64,000 nucleotides of DNA. It comes from Yuukianura sp. NJ FZ-2021. Taxonomy: Eukaryota. Location: NCBI GenBank assembly GCA_046563655.1, contig CM102284.1, forward strand, positions 9,052,001-9,116,000, in the 5' to 3' direction. The notes under the pieces were generated by a model, which made no database searches, had not been told where the DNA came from, and saw nothing but the letters and a program-made list of their open reading frames with translations. Both the position numbers and the translations under genes were made by a program. Below, in pieces: positions 3,001 through 22,229 of this stretch; position 1 is the stretch's first letter, and every line of letters starts with the position of its first letter.

Positions 3001-6000
3001 TCGTCCAGCAATTTCCTTTTCGATTGTCTAAAAACAGGAGAAGAAAATTTTACTAACTTTTTTTTGTAATCTTTGTGAAAATTTTACTTACCAATACAAA
3101 TTCTGCCAGAATTGTCCAAAACAAAGCCTTCGTTGCACTGAAACGCAAAGATCAAGTAGGTTCAGTCGATTTAAAAGTGACACCGTGTCTCGGAAGTTGG
3201 AACTTACCTGACACTGGAAGCTCCCAACAGTGTTAAAACAGCGTCCATTTGGACAAGCACCGATCGACGGATCCCTGCATTCGTCCACATCTTGACACAC
3301 TTGTAGTCTCGAATCATACTGAGTTCCAGTTGGACAAATACACTGAAAACTGCCAGGAGTGTTTTTGCACTGACCACTATTGCATAAGAAGTTGTCCACC
3401 TACAAAAATTCACCAATTACTCAATTGTGATTGTTAGTAACGGGTAGGTACAAATGTAGTAAATAATTTTTGTCATATTACGTCGCATTCGTTGACATCT
3501 ACACACTGTTTTCCGGAAGCATCGACTTCGAATCCAGCTTCACAAATACAACGAAAACTTCCAGGAATATTCTCACATGCACCGTTTGGTCCACATACGC
3601 CTGGGTTCTGAGCACATTCGTTGATATCTAAGACAAAAACAAACGTTATGTTCAAGCTCAACGCTAACTTTGACCTTAGATGACCTTTAGATGCTTATTT
3701 ACCATCTCCGCTGTGTGTCATTCCAGGACCGTGAGGACACAAGAGGTCAAATTCAGGAGTACTTGGCAGAGGACAAGGTCGACAGGGGGTTCCCCAGCCC
3801 ATGGGTTGGCCAAAGACGACAGTGCAGCAACAACAAGTGGAGCGTTCCACTGGAGCTGACGATGGAGCTGTACAGATCCCATCTCGATACTGAGCGTAAC
3901 ACAGATCTCGCTGTGTGTCTAAAAAATCAATTTGAATTTAGAATTGGCAAGAATTTTGAATTTTGACACTCAGTTTTAGTGAGCTTACCTAAACAAGTAG
4001 TTCCGTCTGGACCAATTGAGAATCCTGGAAGGCATTCGCACTGCAACACACCAAAAAATTTCAAATTTCAAATTAAAAATTCAAAAAAAATAAATAAAAT
4101 AAATAATTTTGGACAATTCTCTATTGCATTACCTTGTAACTCCCTCTGGTATTGACACAGCGTCCACCAGAACATGGCGCAGTTTCACATTCGTTGATGT
4201 CTAAGAAATTCGAAACAAAATTGTCCGAAATTTTTCAAAATCGTATTCTCAGAAAATTCCACTCACCGATACAACTTCTTCCAGTCGGTCCAATCATGAA
4301 TCCTGGATTGCAAACTACAAAAAGAGCATTTTTGGTTTTAATTTCGTGAAAAAATGGTCAAACCTTGTTCAAAAGTTACCACAACGATAGGTTCCGTCCA
4401 TGTTGACACAACGGCCATTGTCGCATAACCCAACTCCAGAACTGTCCGTACACTCGTCTCGATCCACACAAAATGACTGATCAGTCGACGGTGTGAAGCC
4501 ATCCAGACAAGTACACTTGTAAGAACCAACCAAATTCTCACAGCGTCCAGACAGACAAATTCTTGGATTTTCAAAACATTCGTCAACGTCAATACAAGAG
4601 TGACCAGTAGGAGAGAGGACGAAGCCATCTTTACACTGACACCTAAAATGGAAAACATAAATACTGTAACTTAGCAACACCACCACTACAAACACTACAA
4701 TTTTCTCACTTGAAAGAACCGTTCATGTTGATGCAAATTCCGTTCGCACACATTCCAGTTTCCGTACATTCGTCGTGATCTGTACAAAACAAACCATTTT
4801 TGAAGAAAAATTGAAAATTTTAGAAAATCGGATTTTTTTTTCAATTTGAACTAAAAACTTACCAATGCAGAACCGCCCATCAGAAGAAACGTCAAACCCA
4901 GTTGGACAAGCACACTGCAAACACATTGAACGTAAAATCAGAATTTTTGAGAACACTAAATTTTTAAAGAAATTGTATTACCGTGTAGCTTCCTTGAGTG
5001 TTGACGCTGCCGTTCAAAAAATTCAAAATTTTAATTTCCGGAATTAAGTTAACATTAGATTAATGGTGGTTTTTTGTGGTTTACCATCGACCACCTTGGC
5101 ATAACCCATGTTGAAGGCGACATTCATCTATGTCTTCACATGGCGACATTGGAGACTTCTGGGAATATCCGGGTGAGCACTCGCAGCGATATCCATCCAC
5201 AAGGTCAATGCACTTTCCATTTCCACCTTATTCAAACATAAAAAAACGTAAAAAGCAAAAACCAAAATTGTAGTTTCAAATTTTTGGAAATCCTGCTTAC
5301 AAATATCTGGGCGAAGACCGCATTCATCCACTTTAGCAATCTGTCCTGGTCCTCCTCCACCAGCAGAATCCAAGCACAGAGCTTTGTATCCATCTTCAAA
5401 ACCCACAAAATTTTCAAAATTTCAACAAAATTTTTAGAAAAATATCAAACTTTATAAAATAAAAATATCTAAGCTCAACGCCACTCCGGGTTAACTTTGA
5501 ACCTTAAATCAACTAATCTAAGATTGAAATTTTACTTGTTTCAGGTGACGGACAAACGTCGCAATTGTTCTCATCGCCCCATCCTTCACAATTTCAAAAA
5601 TAATGTTAAAATCCACATTTTTTAAAACAAAAGGCATTTTTCTAAGAACTGCTAAAAATTGGTTTTCGTTTACCTTTGCCCATGTTAACTCCACAACAAC
5701 AGTCGCGTTTAGTTAGGCGAACAGACAGCTTTCCTCGGCACAGCCCTCGCAGTACTGATGTAAAGCAATTTCCTTGTCTTGCATCTACATCAATAAATCA
5801 CAATAATTACAACTTATAACACAACGTATCAATCAACTTAACTTCATAATTATTACATTTACATCATAAATTACACAAATTAACAAAATCATACAACTTT
5901 GGAAAATTTAGTTTTCAAAACATCCAAACAGTAAGGTTCAGAAAATAAACTCAAACTCCAAACACCCATCAGAAAAAAAATCAGCCTTGTTCAAATGAAA

Positions 6001-14541: not shown

Positions 14542-16073
14542 TTAGCAGTTGGATTTAAAGGCATTGTTTTGGCTGAAAACGATAAAATAAAGTTGTGTGA
14601 TGTCACTAAAGTTTAAACAATTGATCTTGAACATTCAATTACCAATTGAGGCGTCTGAGTTGAGCCAGAACAGAACTTGTATTCGGCGTAGTGTTGCTGG
14701 AGGCGGTTGAACCACGAGCTGAAATCGGTCCGAAATGAGATGCCGACGATCCAGGAGTTGAAATGTCGCTGGCCCGAGACCCAGCTCCGCTGCTACAACT
14801 ACCAACGGAGGATCGCTGGAAAACGCTGAGAAAACGGAACGAAAACGTCAGCATAGAAGAAACCAAATCAATCAATTAAATGTGCTGGACAAAATGAGTT
14901 TCGGTGTACCGATTTGTCAAATTGAAGGGAAGCCCGTTATTTGCTGGCAGTTGACGACGATGACTGTTCTGCATGTCCGTGAGTGTTGGAGTGTGTTGGC
15001 GTGTTAAACGTGGTGGTGGCCCATACGGTTTCGCTGCAAGTTGGGACGCACGACGACTGCTTGAGCTAACGAGAGATCCAAAAGCAGACGACTGGGATGG
15101 TTGGGCCATTGCACGACTAGTACTGGCTGAAGGTCCGAAAAACGGCGAGGGTAACGGTTGGGGTTCAGGCTGTCTAGGCTGTGGTGGAACGAAGACGACT
15201 GGTTCAACGAGAGGCGCATCGCTGAAAAATCCACCGCTGGTGATAGTACCCTGACTTGAACCAGACAAAACCCCATTTCCGATCCACGTCTGGTCACGTC
15301 TATAAAAACAAAAAGTCTTTAGGTAAGTAGTTCAAATTTTTCAGCATGATTGAAATCGCAAGTTTAAAATGCGAACTTACTGTTCGAATAAATCCAACTT
15401 CTGTTTCAACGCTGCATTCTCCCTGCAAGCAACAAATTCTAGATAAACCGAAGGTCAACAGCGGTAAGCTATGTAAGTGAATTCGAAGAAAGCTGCTAAT
15501 TTTAAGAAATAAGCTTACCGTTGCACTGAATCGAGCTTAGTTTTCAAGGCAGCGTCTTCACTAACGAGAGAATCCAACTGACCTTGAAGCGATTTGCATT
15601 GTCCAATCTGCGAAGAGCTATGTAGTTAGTACCTAAGTTTTTAAAATCACGTGTTACCTACCACTTACAATATTGTTCATTTGATTCTTGTAACGTTTGG
15701 CCTGCGTATTCTGAAAGTTGCTCAGTTTGACCACTCGAGCGACAGCTTCTCGTAAAACATCCAAAGGGTCCGAAAAGTAGACTTTGATTTCCGGCTTGAG
15801 CTCTGCAGGATTAGTAATTTCAACATAACGGCAGTTCATCTGACAGGTCAAACAGGTAGAGCCTCCTAAAAATTAACAAAACTTACATCAGATACTAACA
15901 TAGTGAGTTCGATACTTGCACTTAGGCGAGATTCGTTTTCGTACCGTAAACTTACCCATCTGACTACATGTTTTACAAAGTACGTGTCCACAAGAGGTCA
16001 TAAAGTATGACCGATCTTCTCCAAAATCCGGCAAATGTCCGCAGGAGTTGCAGCAGTACAGTATACTGCTCAT
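14542..16073 (-). CDS. RNF212/Zip3-family (Vilya/Narya/Nenya/ZHP-like) RING-finger meiotic E3 ligase
   Basis: N-terminal RING CCNSC...MTSCGHVLCKTC...CLTC, then PEIKVYFSDP and FQNTQ, coiled-coil exons and a Ser/Pro-rich disordered tail; spliced frame ends CQNNAFKSNC*. Confidence 0.78.
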
Positions 16074-16568
16074 CCTGTCAAGTAAGTCGTATTCGTGTCG
16101 TCGATTTCAGTAACACTGCGTCAAACAAACGTGGATTAATCGTTAATCGATTACTCAAAACGTCGACAGTACGAAAACGAAACGTTCTCGACAAGAAAAC
16201 AAAGAAAAAAGGTGAGAATAAGGTACCTGCTGAGAATGGCGGCGCGGCGGCAACAGGAAAGCAAAAAATCTGAATTCTCCTGCCGTAAAAACATACGGTG
16301 TGAACCAAATGTACTTATGTTTTCCCGCTACTTTTTTTAAATATTTGAGAGCATGAGCAACTTTTCAAATGAAATTACACGTGTTATAGTTCAGTTTTCG
16401 CATGGTTCATGCAACCAACCGGCGTCTCCTTCATTTGAATTTTCTCCCTCCTTCATCCCTCCTGCCGCATTCGTCTCTTCTTCGTCGTCGCTTTTGTTCC
16501 TGTCTTCAGCTGTATCCTCTCCCGCAAGTAAAGTGTCCGTTACTTTAATTCAAGTTTAATTAACGTTC

Positions 16569-16870
16569 ATCGACTAACCATTGTTGTTAGTAGTTGTTAG
16601 TCATAATCTCCTGACCATACAAAGTGTCAACTACAGGTAACAACAACTAACAACTAAAGGAACCAAAAGTCATAATGTCTAACGGTCAATGTTTGTTGCT
16701 TTGTTTTAGTTGGGAATATCGACTAACCATTGTTGTTAGTTAGTAGTTGTTAGTCATAATCTCCTGACCATACAAAATGCCAACTACAGGTAACAACAAC
16801 TAACAACTAAAGCAACCAAAAGTCATAAGGTCTAACGGTCAATGTTTGTTGCTTTGTTTTAGTTGGGAAT
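16569..16870. repeat. Tandem duplication, two copies of about 149 bp
   Basis: ATCGACTAACCATTGTTG...TTAGTTGGGAAT at 16569-16717 and 16718-16870; second copy has a 4-bp TTAG insertion and a few substitutions. Confidence 0.92.
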
Positions 16871-17753
16871 GGGGTTTTCTAAAAATGGACACCCACATCA
16901 TCACCTTCCGCATCGGCATCACCTCTTCCAAATCTTTTCATCCTGCATCTCAATTCTCCATTTCAGTCGTCGTTTCTCTTGTGCAAACTTTGGCAACGAC
17001 TCATTCCCACCTCTCCATTTCTACTTTCAATCGTTTCTCAACTACTTGGGACTTGGGAGGTAGGACGTTCAGCACTTTTCACATTCCACTTTCCACATTT
17101 TGATAACAAGGTAAGGAACACTCTTTTTCATTACTCCTGGTTGGCATTTAGTCATTTGTTTGGGCTTCAATTGGTCATAGTGAGAGAGAACCGTTGAGGT
17201 CAAACGTAGTTCAAAGGTCAGGTCACTTGGACAAACGTAATTTGGAAGGGAGGGACTTTACCGGGATTCAGTCCTTACATGAGGTGCTAAAAATGGAATT
17301 GAGATGCTAGGACGATAAATGGCCCAATACTTGCCATCTTTGTAATCTATCAGTGTTTATATTCCATCTTCATTTCTTAGCCTCAATTCAGTTCCAGTGC
17401 TGGGTGACACTGGCTTCATTTACCTAACTTACGCTTCAAAGATCTTTAGCTAACAGATTCTTCTCAAAACAACCCACGCATTCCACAGCATCTCAATTCC
17501 AAAGTTATTTTATGATTCTGATCCCACGTTATTTTTGTTTTGGTTTTAGATAAGTGGCAAGATGCTAAGACTTCTATTTTTGCCTAAGTATTTTAAAGTT
17601 CAACTGAAGTTATGTGCTTTTGTTTTTGTTTAGAAGGAGTAGTGTGGCTATGGGGGACTCTGCCTCACTATTTTTAGCTCAGCCGTAGGGACTAGTCGGG
17701 AGTAGTATTTGGGAGGGGAAATACCTTAAAAATGACCAAATATCAGAAACGGT

Positions 17754-18198
17754 TTGCTTTTTGAATTTTTAGGAGGATTTAAAAAGTTCTTTTAAAGACA
17801 ACTTTTCTCTAGAAAAACTTTTTTTTTTAAAAAAATTTTAAACTACTTCTCAAACGTTGCTTTTTGAATTTTTAGTGGGGGATTTAAAAAGTTCTTTTAA
17901 AGACAACTTTTCTCTAGAAAAACTTTTTTTTTTAAAAAATTTTTAAACTACTTCTCAAACGTTGCTTTTTGAATTTTTAGTGGGGGATTTTAAAAGTTCT
18001 TTGAAAAACAACTTTTCTTTAGAAAAACTTTTTTTTTAAAGTTTAAATTACTTCTCAAACGTTGCTTTTTGAATTTTTAGTGGGGGATTTAAAAAGTTCT
18101 TTTAAGAACAACTTTTCTCTAGGAAAACTTGTTTTTAAATTTTAAATTACTTCTCAAACGTTGCTTTTTGTATTTTTAGAGGGGGATTTTAAAAGTTC
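17754..18198. repeat. Tandem repeat A, unit about 100-105 bp, about 4.4 copies
   Basis: TTGCTTTTTGAATTTTTAG...CTTCTCAAACG recurs at about 17754, 17857, 17962, 18062 and 18161. Confidence 0.9.
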
Positions 18199-18289
18199 TA
18201 TCCTTTCAAATATTTAATCCTTATTTCGAGGCTTGTTCGAATCTTTCGCAATTTTTTATTTTTTCAAATATTTAATCCTTACTTTTAAG

Positions 18290-19736
18290 CTTCAATCCTT
18301 CGCAACTTTCTATCCTTTTAACCATTAAATTGTTAGTTCTAAGCTTCGAATCCTTCGCCACTTTCTATCTTTTTAACCATTAAATTGTTAGTTCTAAGCT
18401 TTGAATCCTTCGCAACATTCTATCTTTTTAACCACTAAATTCGTAGTTCTAAGCTTCGAATCCTTCGCCACTTTCTATCTTTTTAACCACTAAATTGTTA
18501 GTTCTAAGCTTTGAATCCTTCGCAACATTCTATCTTTTTAACCACTAAATTCGTAGTTCTAAGCTTCGAATCCTTCGCCACTTTCTATCGCTTTAACCAT
18601 TAAATTCTTAGTTCTAAGCTTCGAATCCTTCGCCACTTTCTATCTCTTTAACCATTAAATTCGTAGGTCTAAGCTTTGAATCCTTCGCCACTTTCTATCT
18701 TTTTAACCATTAAATTCTTAGTTCTAAGCTTCGAATCCTTCGCCACTTTCTATCTTTTTAACCACTAAATTGTTAGTTCTAAGCTTTGAATCCTTCGCAA
18801 CATTCTATCTTTTTAACCACTAAATTCGTAGTTCTAAGCTTCGAATCCTTCGCCACTTTCTATCGCTTTAACCATTAAATTCTTGGTTAGTTCTAAGCTT
18901 CGAATCCTTCGCCACTTTCTATCTCTTTAACCATTAAATTCTTAGTTAGTTCTAAGCTTCGAATCCTTCGCCACTTTCTATCTTTTTAACCATTAAATTC
19001 TTAGTTCTAAGCTTCGAATCCTTCGCCACTTTCTATCTTTTTAACCATTAAATTCTTAGTTCTAAGCTTCGAATCCTTCGCCACTTTCTATCTCTTTAAC
19101 CATTAAATTCTTAGTTCTAAGCTTCGAATCCTTCGCCACTTTCTATCTTTTTAACCATTAAATTCTTAGTTCTAAGCTTCGAATCCTTCGCCACTTTCTA
19201 TCTCTTTAACCATTAAATTCGTAGTTCTAAGCTTTGAATCCTTCGCCACTTTCTATCTTTTTAACCATTAAATTCTTAGTTCTAAGCTTCGAATCCTTCG
19301 CCACTTTCTATCTTTTTAACCATTAAATTCTTAGTTCTAAGCTTCGAATCCTTCGCCACTTTCTATCTCTTTAACCATTAAATTCGTAGTTCTAAGCTTT
19401 GAATCCTTCGCCACTTTCTATCTTTTTAACCATTAAATTCTTAGTTCTAAGCTTCGAATCCTTCGCCACTTTCTATCTTTTTAACCATTAAATTCTTAGT
19501 TCTAAGCTTCGAATCCTACGCCACTTTCTATCTCTTTAACCATTAAATTCGTAGTTCTAAGCTTTGAATCGTTCGCCACTTTCTATCTTTTTATCCACTA
19601 AATTCTTGGTTCTGAGCTTCGAATCCTTCGCAACGTTCTTCCTTTTTAACCATTAAATTCTTAGTTCTACGCTTCGACACTTTCGCAACTTTCTGTCTTT
19701 TTAACCATTAGATTTTTAGTTCTAAGCTTCGAGTCC
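18290..19736. repeat. Tandem repeat B, 55-bp minisatellite, about 26 copies
   Basis: Unit TTCTAAGCTTCGAATCCTTCGCCACTTTCTATCTTTTTAACCATTAAATTCTTAG; period 55 (e.g. 18961 and 19016). Confidence 0.95.
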
Positions 19737-19737
19737 T

Positions 19738-20298
19738 TAAAGGTATAAATTTACATTCAGAGAGAAATTTTTTAAAAAATTTATTATTCTTTGTTAAGGT
19801 GTCAATTCACTTTCAGAGAGAAATTTTTTAAAAAATTTATTATTCTTTGTTAAGGTGTCAATTCACTTTCAGAGAGAAATTTTTTAAAGAATTTATTATT
19901 CTTTGTTAAGGTGTCAATTCACTTTCAGAGACAAATTTTTTAAAGAATTTATTATTCTCTGTTAAGGTGTAAATTCACATTCGGAGAGAAGTTTTTAAAA
20001 AAATTTATTATTCTTTGTTAAGGTGTCAATTCACTTTCAGAGACAAATTTTTTAAAGAATTTATTATTCTCTGTTAAGGTGTAAATTCACATTCGGAGAG
20101 AAGTTTTTAAAAAAATTTATTATTCTTTGTTAAGGTGTCAATTCACTTTCAGAGAGAAATTTTTTAAAGAATTTATTATTCTTTGTTAAGGTGTAAATTC
20201 ACATTCGGAGACAAATTTTTTAAAGAATTTATTATTCTCTGTTAAGGTGTAAATTCACATTCGGAGACAAATTTTTTAAAGAATTTATTATTCTCTGT
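19738..20298. repeat. Tandem repeat C, 56-bp unit, about 10 copies
   Basis: Unit GTCAATTCACTTTCAGAGAGAAATTTTTTAAAGAATTTATTATTCTTTGTTAAGGT; period 56 (19801, 19857, 19913). Confidence 0.95.
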
Positions 20299-21308
20299 GA
20301 AGAGAATCCGAACATTGACTTTCGAACGTTAATTACGGAATATTAGGGGTGGTAATACAAGGATTTGGCACTACCTAATATTGCGCACTCAACGTTCAAT
20401 AAATGTTCGAGCTTTCTATGGAATAATAAATTCTAATAATTGTTTTTTGGGTCGACATATTTGCCATCGATATTTTTGTCGTGGATATTTTAGTGGCTTT
20501 TTTCGTTTCGGATATTTGGTCATTTTGAAGTTTGCCCCCCTCCCCAATACTGCGCCCGACTAGTACCTACGGCTGAGCTAAAAATAGTGAGGCTGAGTTC
20601 CTGCCACCCACACTACTGAAGGTGCTGCGAAGAGTATTGGGAAGAGGTGCAGTTGCGGAAGGGAAGATGCGATGAGCTAGCCTGACAGTGAAGCAGTGGC
20701 CAACTTCCGGAAGGAAGTTGAAGGTTAGGAGTGACTACAATTGAAGGTTGTTCGGTGAGTTCTTGTTTTTACTTTTCGTAGAATAAGCTAATGACAGTTA
20801 ATTAATGGATTAACTTAGACAGGTGATGTGTTGAAGTGTTGTTTTATGGAAACAGGGAGTGGATAGAGTCGCAGTACGTTCCTACGAAGCAGGCGAATCC
20901 GACGTTCCCTATCTTGGTTCGCGAGTGCTCCAATGTTCAGCCCAAAGTTTATGCGAGATACGGTAAGGGAAGTAATTAGATCAAGTAATTGATAGCTCTG
21001 AAAGGTTATCAGTACAAAGAGTAGTGTTGAGAATGAGATGCAAGAGTACAGCATGAATCATGCTGTACAATTTGATTTGGCATTTCTGCCCGCCATCTAT
21101 TGGTGCAATAAGAGAGGCAAAATTCAAAATTAACTTTTTCCCTCCCTTTGAGGATGACAACAGCCGATCAGCTGATGCTAAGCAAAAATTTATCAGGGAA
21201 AGCTCTCTCTTCGTGTTTTTTTCCGGAGCAGTTTGATACTTCATAGTTGTGCTACTAATTAATTGTTAATCGATTAATTAATGGTTTAGTTTTACAGATT
21301 TAACAATA

Positions 21309-22229
<921 letters not shown>

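What the first reader, a model, noticed from the sequence alone, without database searches (positions are those of the whole stretch)
17633..20622. Gene-less Polinton/Maverick-like element carrying three satellite arrays
Seen: 2,980-bp element with AGTAGT...ACTACT ends, 114-bp TIRs (about 84% identical), a perfect 5-bp TSD (GAAGG) and no credible ORF. Established: Polintons/Mavericks have AG...CT termini, often with short terminal repeats such as AGTAGT, long TIRs and 5-6 bp TSDs, and are normally about 15-25 kb with pPolB, integrase and capsid genes. Inference: this is a non-autonomous derivative that kept only the cis termini and filled its interior with tandem repeats, a possible parasite of an endogenous virus and a vehicle for spreading satellite DNA.
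Basis: partly seen in the sequence, partly recalled or inferred. Interest (0 to 1): 0.8.

Follow-up and report, generated by a model that had tools for sequence, protein, structure and literature searches.

The report
Dead Maverick shell carrying satellite repeats
This 3-kb gene-less piece has the ends of the virus-like Maverick transposons of the same animal genome, but all eight copies sit in the same flanking DNA, so it likely jumped only once and was then copied passively with host DNA, while its repeats also occur without the ends near most contig ends.

Summary
In detail: 2,980 bp, 114-bp inverted ends (84%), GAAGG on both sides, arrays of 105, 55 and 56 bp, and no frame over 76 codons. 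The Maverick link is now tested. The ends match gene-bearing Mavericks of this genome (pPolB, integrase, capsid-like genes), 8 of 11 of which also have 5-bp target duplications. The 105-bp unit itself matches their long inverted repeats.

The 'mobile parasite and satellite vehicle' reading is not supported. All 8 copies share the same left junction and all 7 two-ended ones the same right junction; no empty site was found. The two ends differ by 16-20%. The best reading is one old insertion, later copied with host DNA.

The repeat cassette also occurs at 8 loci with no Maverick end. Of the 16 arrays, 14 lie within 370 kb of an end of the 8 large contigs, at 13 of 16 ends, and their units appear to be exchanged between loci. 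Each ingredient is a known kind. The near one-per-end layout is unexplained. The scan noted a sister copy earlier (e1-7496261).

The parts
17633..17637 (+). Left copy of the 5-bp target duplication (GAAGG); it overlaps a splice-acceptor-like site of the host sequence
   Evidence: The 5-bp length matches local Mavericks. The acceptor reading is by eye and untested.
17638..17751 (+). Left terminal inverted repeat, Maverick type (AGTAG start, conserved core 34 nt inside)
   Evidence: It is 78-87% identical over 53-82 nt to termini of gene-bearing Mavericks.
17754..18199 (+). 105-bp tandem array (4.4 units); the unit is homologous to a segment inside Maverick long inverted repeats
   Evidence: 75-83% identity, E about 1e-10 to 1e-13. 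Local score 69 against 35.5 +/- 3.6 (max 42) for 30 shuffles.
18236..19738 (+). 55-bp tandem array (27 units); no Maverick match found
   Evidence: All 216 of 216 exact-motif hits in G000 fall in 14 loci.
19740..20302 (+). 56-bp tandem array (10 units); no Maverick match found
   Evidence: All 480 of 480 exact-motif hits were placed, in 16 arrays plus one single unit.
20303..20503 (-). Unique right subterminal stretch; 20402-20503 continues the Maverick homology beyond the arm
   Evidence: The right 216 nt are 72% identical to the Maverick end at C1:4629260, E 3e-28.
20504..20617 (-). Right terminal inverted repeat
   Evidence: It differs from the left arm at 18 of 114 positions.
20618..20622 (+). 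Right copy of the target duplication (GAAGG)
16416..17637 (+). Host-derived left flank copied together with the element; includes a local 153-bp duplication at 16569-16870
   Evidence: 89-96% identical to the left flank of all 7 other copies.
20618..21039 (+). Right flank copied with the element: 96 bp shared with all 6 other two-ended copies, 378 bp with the C1:3.95 Mb copy, and a short patch to about 21039 matching two others

Best explanation
This is a gene-less remnant with the termini of this genome's Maverick (Polinton) elements, which likely inserted once and has likely spread since only as a passenger inside duplicated host DNA. Step 1 (homology shown, event inferred): a Maverick, or an already deleted derivative, was integrated at GAAGG by a retroviral-type integrase and left a 5-bp duplication. 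Step 2 (homology shown, mechanism inferred): the genes are absent, a segment of the long inverted repeat was amplified into the 105-bp array, and the 55- and 56-bp arrays, of unknown source, arose or were gained inside. Step 3 (shared flanks shown, mechanism inferred): the element plus 1.1-5.6 kb of left flank and 0.1-4.3 kb of right flank was copied to 8 places by ectopic repair or segmental duplication, 6 of them within 280 kb of contig ends. Step 4 (inferred, about 60%): the cassette left the shell by recombination into a second host context that was duplicated the same way, giving 8 arrays with no Maverick end. Step 5 (identities shown, mechanism inferred): the arrays at the different loci go on exchanging units.
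For: (a) Termini. The arm hits the ends of 11 paired larger elements, of which 8 have a 5-bp duplication, 1 a 6-bp and 2 none, each at a different site. The C1:4.61-4.63 Mb element encodes DNA_pol_B_2 (E 2e-9) and rve (E 1e-10). The C3:7.75-7.76 Mb element encodes rve (E 4e-11) and a DJR-like capsid (Atlas 0.98). (b) One insertion. The left flank has 8 hits in G000 and all 8 abut the element. Seven of the 8 right-flank hits abut it; the eighth is a distal part in a direct repeat beside one copy. A protein search with the right-flank frame gives only the 7 two-ended copies. (c) No re-copying as a Maverick. Left and right arms differ by 16-20% within a copy, in largely the same positions in all copies, whereas left arms of different copies differ by 3.7% and left flanks by 5.1%. 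The first 90 nt differ by 0-9% in 9 of 9 larger Mavericks against 18% here. Flank and arm distances correlate (Mantel r 0.47, 139 of 5040 permutations). (d) The carrier is host DNA with ragged ends, and the C4 copy's flanks hold zf-UBP, UCH and UBX pieces. (e) The cassette occurs without termini at 8 loci. The 105-to-55 junction differs by 16% between the two contexts but the 55-bp units by only 5%, with 5 identical units shared.
Against: No empty site exists in the assembly, so the duplication is not verified against a pre-insertion allele. No gene-bearing Maverick with this exact terminal subfamily was found (score only 40 candidates). The capsid call is a feature-based lead: recognition was 2265, just under the tool's 2300 mark, and the family is on 14-30% of cluster members. 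The ATPase is below the Pfam cut-off, and the N-terminal polymerase ORF of the C3 element gave only zinc fingers. The 55-, 56- and 63-bp units score no better than shuffles against Maverick ends, so their origin inside the shell is not shown. The arm asymmetry could predate insertion (a chimeric element). Only 3 of 16 large-contig ends show many TTAGG/CCTAA words in their last 1.5 kb, so 'contig end = telomere' is mostly unproven.
Confidence: 0.8

Rival explanations
1. One reading: a working non-autonomous Maverick that is replicated and integrated in trans by full-size elements and so spreads satellite DNA.
For: The termini, terminal motif and 5-bp duplication are intact. Gene-bearing Mavericks and short derivatives with near-identical long arms and different target sites exist in G000, so trans-mobilisation probably occurs in this genome.
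Against: All 8 copies share the left junction and all 7 two-ended ones the right junction. The arms are 16-20% diverged. Eight of 16 arrays lack termini. Contigs from two studies show the same junctions.
Confidence: 0.05
2. The element inserted repeatedly and site-specifically into one position of a multi-copy host sequence.
For: The same junction is seen in every copy.
Against: No unoccupied target copy was found. Local Mavericks use 9 different target sequences. Flank and arm distances correlate.
Confidence: 0.03
3. The flank-plus-element unit is cargo of another mobile element (Helitron-like rolling circle or similar), not of passive segmental duplication.
For: The copies are dispersed, two are deep inside contigs, and they share a core with variable outer ends. 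One copy lies between 589-bp direct repeats. Helitron/Helentron elements are known carriers of internal tandem arrays (PMC12628747 and PMC9659126, passages).
Against: No common terminus or target duplication was seen in the breakpoint alignments. Both ends vary, and the flanks are mosaics of host gene pieces. I did not search G000 for a Rep/helicase gene.
Confidence: 0.1
4. The 55/56-bp satellites existed first in the terminus-free context and entered the Maverick shell by recombination at the 105-bp-like sequence (the reverse of step 4).
For: The 55- and 56-bp units have no Maverick match. The longest 56-bp arrays are at terminus-free loci. The C5:10.42 Mb locus has divergent 55-bp units (12% from the shell copies) and an extra 45-bp repeat, which looks old.
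Against: All 8 terminus-free loci still carry 105-bp-like sequence, which matches Maverick inverted repeats and is contiguous with the arm only in the shell.
Confidence: 0.3
5. The cassette is kept at about one copy per chromosome arm because it has a chromosomal role (pairing, anchoring or a heterochromatin boundary).
For: Fourteen of 16 arrays are within 370 kb of a contig end (6.4% of the 8 contigs; P about 2e-15). They occupy 13 different ends (P about 0.005 for 14 draws into 16), and 15 of 16 contig halves have one (P about 0.0002). The two interior copies lie on contigs whose left end has none. Units are similar across loci.
Against: The cut-off was chosen after seeing the data. End-to-end copying, or loss of same-end pairs, also gives one per end. 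Polarity is not kept (9 of 14). Array size and make-up vary widely. There is no functional evidence, and divergent arrays lacking the exact motifs would be missed.
Confidence: 0.07

Closest known systems
Mavericks/Polintons (polintoviruses) and their degraded copies
   Same: AG...CT termini with the (AGT)2 end motif reported for vertebrate Mavericks (PMC8097293, passages), inverted repeats, a short target duplication, and direct homology to local gene-bearing elements. That paper finds 96% of vertebrate loci degraded.
   Different: No genes, 3 kb against 15-25 kb (PMC6431247, section 10 read). The duplication is 5 bp, as in the local elements, not the 6 bp of vertebrates. The arms are 16-20% diverged and there is no sign of a second transposition.
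Non-autonomous Polintons of Repbase type (recalled from Kapitonov and Jurka 2006; not read)
   Same: Short, gene-less, keeps the cis termini.
   Different: Such families are defined by many independent insertions; here there is one insertion site. Two exact-phrase searches found no paper in the library, so this comparison rests on recall.
Transposon-borne and transposon-derived satellites (Tetris TIR-220, Xenopus Xstir/miDNA4 MITEs, DINE-1/Helentron central repeats, oyster Cg170)
   Same: A tandem unit derived from inverted-repeat sequence, arrays inside a non-autonomous element, and coexisting element-borne, one-sided and stand-alone arrays (PMC9659126, PMC12628747, passages).
   Different: The donor is a Maverick. 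The words Maverick and Polinton do not occur in those two reviews, but single satellites with Polinton homology are noted in locust (coding region, PMC4935994, passage) and oyster (table label, PMC8268682, passage). Spread here is not by the element's own transposition.
Subtelomeric duplicon patchworks (human; PMC2323237, Background read)
   Same: Duplicated blocks over 1 kb at about 90% identity or more, with ragged ends, clustered near chromosome ends and exchanging sequence between chromosomes.
   Different: The blocks here are small and several lie 250-370 kb inside among apparent single-copy genes. Telomere tracts were seen at only 3 of 16 contig ends.

Membership tests
Maverick/Polinton (autonomous) | Encodes protein-primed PolB, retroviral-like integrase, ATPase, protease and capsid | tested here: not met
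   Longest frame is 76 codons.
Maverick/Polinton (autonomous) | Length of about 13-25 kb | tested here: not met
   2,271-4,053 bp in the 7 two-ended copies.
Maverick/Polinton derivative | AG...CT termini with inverted repeats homologous to gene-bearing Mavericks | tested here: met
   partner genes.
Maverick/Polinton derivative | Target duplication of the length the family makes | tested here: met
   5 bp here and 5 bp in 8 of 11 local paired elements; no empty site to confirm it.
Mobile non-autonomous transposon family | Several independent insertions with different target sites | tested here: not met
   All 8 copies share the left junction.
Mobile non-autonomous transposon family | Near-identical arms and a matching autonomous partner | tested here: not met
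   Arms are 16-20% apart.
Mobile non-autonomous transposon family | Mobilisation in trans | not testable with these tools
   Needs population data or an experiment.
Transposon-derived satellite | Monomer homologous to part of a transposon | tested here: met
   Met for the 105-bp unit only; the 55-, 56- and 63-bp units score no better than shuffles.
Subtelomeric segmental duplication | Shared blocks over 1 kb at about 90% identity or more with variable breakpoints, on several chromosomes | tested here: met
Subtelomeric segmental duplication | Location next to true telomeres | tested here: inconclusive
   Fourteen of 16 arrays are within 370 kb of contig ends, but TTAGG-rich tips were seen at only 3 of 16 ends.
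Helitron/Helentron carrier | Fixed 5' TC and 3' hairpin-CTRR ends, and a Rep/helicase partner | tested here: inconclusive
   No shared ends in the alignments (read by eye); no search for a partner gene was run.

The most novel reading that the evidence does not exclude
A satellite cassette born in the terminal repeat of an endogenous Maverick virus has been domesticated as a chromosomal landmark, kept at about one copy near each chromosome end (13 of 16 ends, 15 of 16 contig halves) and homogenised between chromosomes, for example as a pairing or anchoring site.
Probability: 0.07. Interest if true: 0.75.

Novelty: new member of a known kind. Interest (0 to 1): 0.3.

Why it matters
It is a traceable case of a tandem repeat arising from a Maverick's terminal repeat and of a dead element multiplying without transposing. 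It warns that multi-copy status plus an intact target duplication does not show mobility. The near one-per-end layout of 16 arrays gives a small, complete, testable system for how satellites move and are homogenised between chromosome ends. It would matter much more if the layout were conserved or functional, which is not shown.

Tried and rejected
Searches for an empty site with the left flank, right flank and right-flank frame found none. Five DNA runs of two studies were laid on the two junctions and no listed loose end showed flank joined to flank; 3 and 19 loose ends were not shown and the runs are contigs only. No RNA holder was listed, so expression and splicing are untested. Rfam gave 0 matches. 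The PDB search with the N-terminal polymerase ORF gave only zinc fingers. The 55-, 56- and 63-bp units gave no match to 19 Maverick loci above chance. The left flank of the terminus-free arrays was tested as a second transposon end. It is a gene-like stretch with two unrelated nested short elements, and their far ends were not found beyond the arrays, so that idea was rejected. An LTR reading of the 589-bp direct repeat at C1:3.95 Mb was dropped because it is seen at one copy only and shows no TG..CA start by eye. A conserved polarity towards the ends was rejected (9 of 14). The look-up of earlier findings by the 55-bp array gave nothing. Kapitonov and Jurka 2006 is not held in the library. 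Exact-phrase searches for non-autonomous Polintons/Mavericks gave 0 papers, which shows nothing about subscription journals or Repbase. No supplements were read.
Full report
Observation. The element is as described. It runs from window 17638 to 20617 (2,980 bp), starts AGTAGT, ends ACTACT and has GAAGG on both sides. Its arms are 114 nt and 84% complementary. The interior is three arrays of 105 bp x4.4, 55 bp x27.2 and 56 bp x10.1, and no frame is longer than 76 codons. The window is G000:C2:9052001-9116000, in a 98.7-Mb assembly of 22 contigs, 8 of which make up 94%. The host is an animal with intron-bearing genes. Earlier AI notes call it a springtail; I did not test that.

The ends are Maverick ends. 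The left arm gave 42 matches: 8 close left arms (94-100%), 7 partner right arms and 27 weaker hits to an internal core. The weaker hits are termini of 5-19 kb elements that begin AGTAG 34-35 nt before the same core. Of 11 paired elements, 8 have a 5-bp target duplication, 1 has 6 bp and 2 have none, all at different sites. I tested the proteins of two full-size ones. The C1:4.61-4.63 Mb element has DNA_pol_B_2 (E 2e-9, above cut-off; Atlas agrees) and rve. The C3:7.75-7.76 Mb element has rve (E 4e-11), a weak Pox_A32 hit below cut-off and a 433-aa protein closest to DJR-like clusters (0.98, but recognition just under the tool's mark). Nine of the 16 proteins had no Pfam hit. These genes are the Maverick set (PMC6431247, section 10 read). 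The (AGT)2 end motif is that of vertebrate Mavericks, which have 6-bp duplications (PMC8097293, passages). Homology goes beyond the arm: the right 216 nt are 72% identical to the C1:4629260 terminus. The 105-bp unit matches a segment inside the Mavericks' long inverted repeats in the same orientation, 160-310 nt from the end in several and further in for others (75-83%; score 69 against a maximum of 42 in 30 shuffles). The 55-, 56- and 63-bp units do not match.

It inserted once. All 8 copies have the same left junction and all 7 two-ended copies the same right junction. The left flank has exactly 8 hits, each abutting the element. Seven of the 8 right-flank hits abut it, and the eighth is a distal piece in a direct repeat beside one copy. 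No empty site was found in G000 or among the listed loose ends in contigs of two studies (contigs show presence, not absence). Left and right arms of one copy differ by 16-20%, largely at the same positions in every copy, while left arms of different copies differ by 3.7%, right arms by 8.5% and left flanks by 5.1%. In 9 of 9 larger Mavericks the first 90 nt of the two arms differ by 0-9%, against 18% here. Flank and arm distances are correlated (r 0.47, 139 of 5040 permutations). The asymmetry therefore predates the copying, and the copies share one history with their flanks.

What was copied is host DNA. Shared flanks run 1.1-5.6 kb on the left and 0.1-4.3 kb on the right, with different breakpoints between pairs. 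The C4 copy's flanks contain zf-UBP, UCH and UBX pieces (5 of 9 flank frames had a Pfam hit at E 0.05 or better; 3 reach or pass the cut-off). In the window the copied unit is about 16416-21039 and lies between a RING-finger exon on the minus strand and an Erv26/TEX261-family exon on the plus strand. This resembles subtelomeric duplicon patchworks (PMC2323237, Background read). Earlier notes on this genome report such patchworks at contig ends; I checked this only for the C4 flanks.

The satellites outrun the shell. The 55/56 junction also occurs at 6 loci with no Maverick terminus. These share a different 1.7-2.0 kb left flank with two nested short elements. Two more loci on C5 share part of that flank without those insertions and carry 105-like and 56-bp units, one also with divergent 55-bp and 45-bp repeats. 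For exact motifs the census is complete: 216 of 216 hits for the 55-bp motif, 97 of 97 for the 63-bp motif and 480 of 480 for the 56-bp motif are placed. Arrays too divergent to hold these motifs would be missed. All 8 terminus-free loci keep 105-like sequence, which favours escape from the shell, but this direction is inferred. The 105-to-55 junction differs by 16% between shell and terminus-free loci, but 55-bp units by 5% and 56-bp units by 10%, with 5 and 4 identical units shared. This points to later exchange between loci. The C1:9.96 Mb copy has the shell's left half, 92 copies of a 64-bp unit and no right arm in the stretch examined, like the one-sided arrays described in PMC12628747 (passages).

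Placement. Fourteen of the 16 arrays lie within 370 kb of an end of the 8 large contigs and occupy 13 of 16 ends. The two interior ones are on contigs whose left end has none. The enrichment is strong (P about 2e-15) and the spread is more even than random (P about 0.005), but the cut-off was set afterwards. Only 3 of 16 contig tips are TTAGG-rich, polarity is not kept (9 of 14), and end-to-end copying would also give one per end. A function is possible but has no direct support.

Comparison and verdict. It is a Maverick derivative by its termini and duplication length. It is not an autonomous Maverick, and it fails the test for a mobile non-autonomous family. Degraded Mavericks are the rule (96% of vertebrate loci, PMC8097293). 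Satellites from inverted repeats and inside non-autonomous elements are well known (PMC9659126, PMC12628747, passages), and Polinton-related satellites have been noted in locust and oyster (PMC4935994, PMC8268682, one passage each). I found no paper on a satellite from a Maverick terminal repeat in 9 searches (listings, with passages or sections read for 9 papers). Subscription journals, Repbase and supplements were not seen. The scan noted the 3,229-bp sister copy earlier and said its Polinton link rested on the ends alone; here the link is tested and the mobility claim fails. Novelty: new member of a known kind. Interest 0.3.

Noticed in passing
L038, L039, L043, L045 (C8:10.286 Mb, C4:10.44 Mb, C1:4.62 Mb, C4:7.95 Mb): Mini-Mavericks of 5-6.5 kb with 1.3-2.1 kb inverted repeats (94-99.8% identical) around an ATPase-like ORF and one acidic ORF; the C1 one is nested in a 19-kb Maverick. 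These, not the present element, look like the recently mobile non-autonomous forms.
   Followed up: partly
L049-L050 (C9:1272341-1285124): A 12.8-kb element with Maverick ends and a 5-bp duplication whose interior holds an inverted duplication of at least 2.7 kb at 99.6%.
   Followed up: no
L048 (C1:132191-140358): A Maverick-ended 8.2-kb element with 1.3-kb arms that contains a reverse transcriptase ORF (RVT_1, E 3e-16), probably a nested retroelement.
   Followed up: no
L040-L041 (C4:8917946-8930886): Maverick termini whose outer flanks are inverted copies of each other, with no target duplication; this suggests an inverted duplication.
   Followed up: no
L113-L118, about 3850-4630: A 720-bp MITE-like family with CAGG...CTG ends and 8-bp target duplications in 3 of 3 copies inspected (hAT-like); a 405-bp family with short inverted ends is nested in it upstream of the terminus-free arrays.
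   Followed up: partly
window 17620-17642 and 20618-20713: The insertion point looks like a splice acceptor, and the right flank reads as an open 48-codon frame ending at a donor-like site in 5 of 7 copies. No parent gene without the element was found.
   Followed up: partly
window 15957-16073 (-) and 21696-21917 (+): The copied unit sits between two divergently oriented host genes, a zf-RING_5 gene (RNF212-like by recall) and an Erv26/TEX261-family gene; it may affect a shared promoter region.
   Followed up: partly
L055/L056 (C1:3.953-3.959 Mb): This copy and its flanks lie between 589-bp direct repeats (94.6%); the window's right flank holds 252 bp of that repeat.
   Followed up: partly
window 20797-21060: In run X2 this stretch has contig depth of about 270-650 against about 6-60 over most of the element end, suggesting a high-copy repeat in that sample (depth is not a copy number).
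   Followed up: no
L121 about 4860-4909 (C4:11566865): A single isolated 56-bp unit in unique DNA, a possible short ectopic insertion.
   Followed up: partly
window 21047-21069: A perfect 11-bp inverted repeat with a 1-nt loop just beyond the right edge of the copied unit (read).
   Followed up: no
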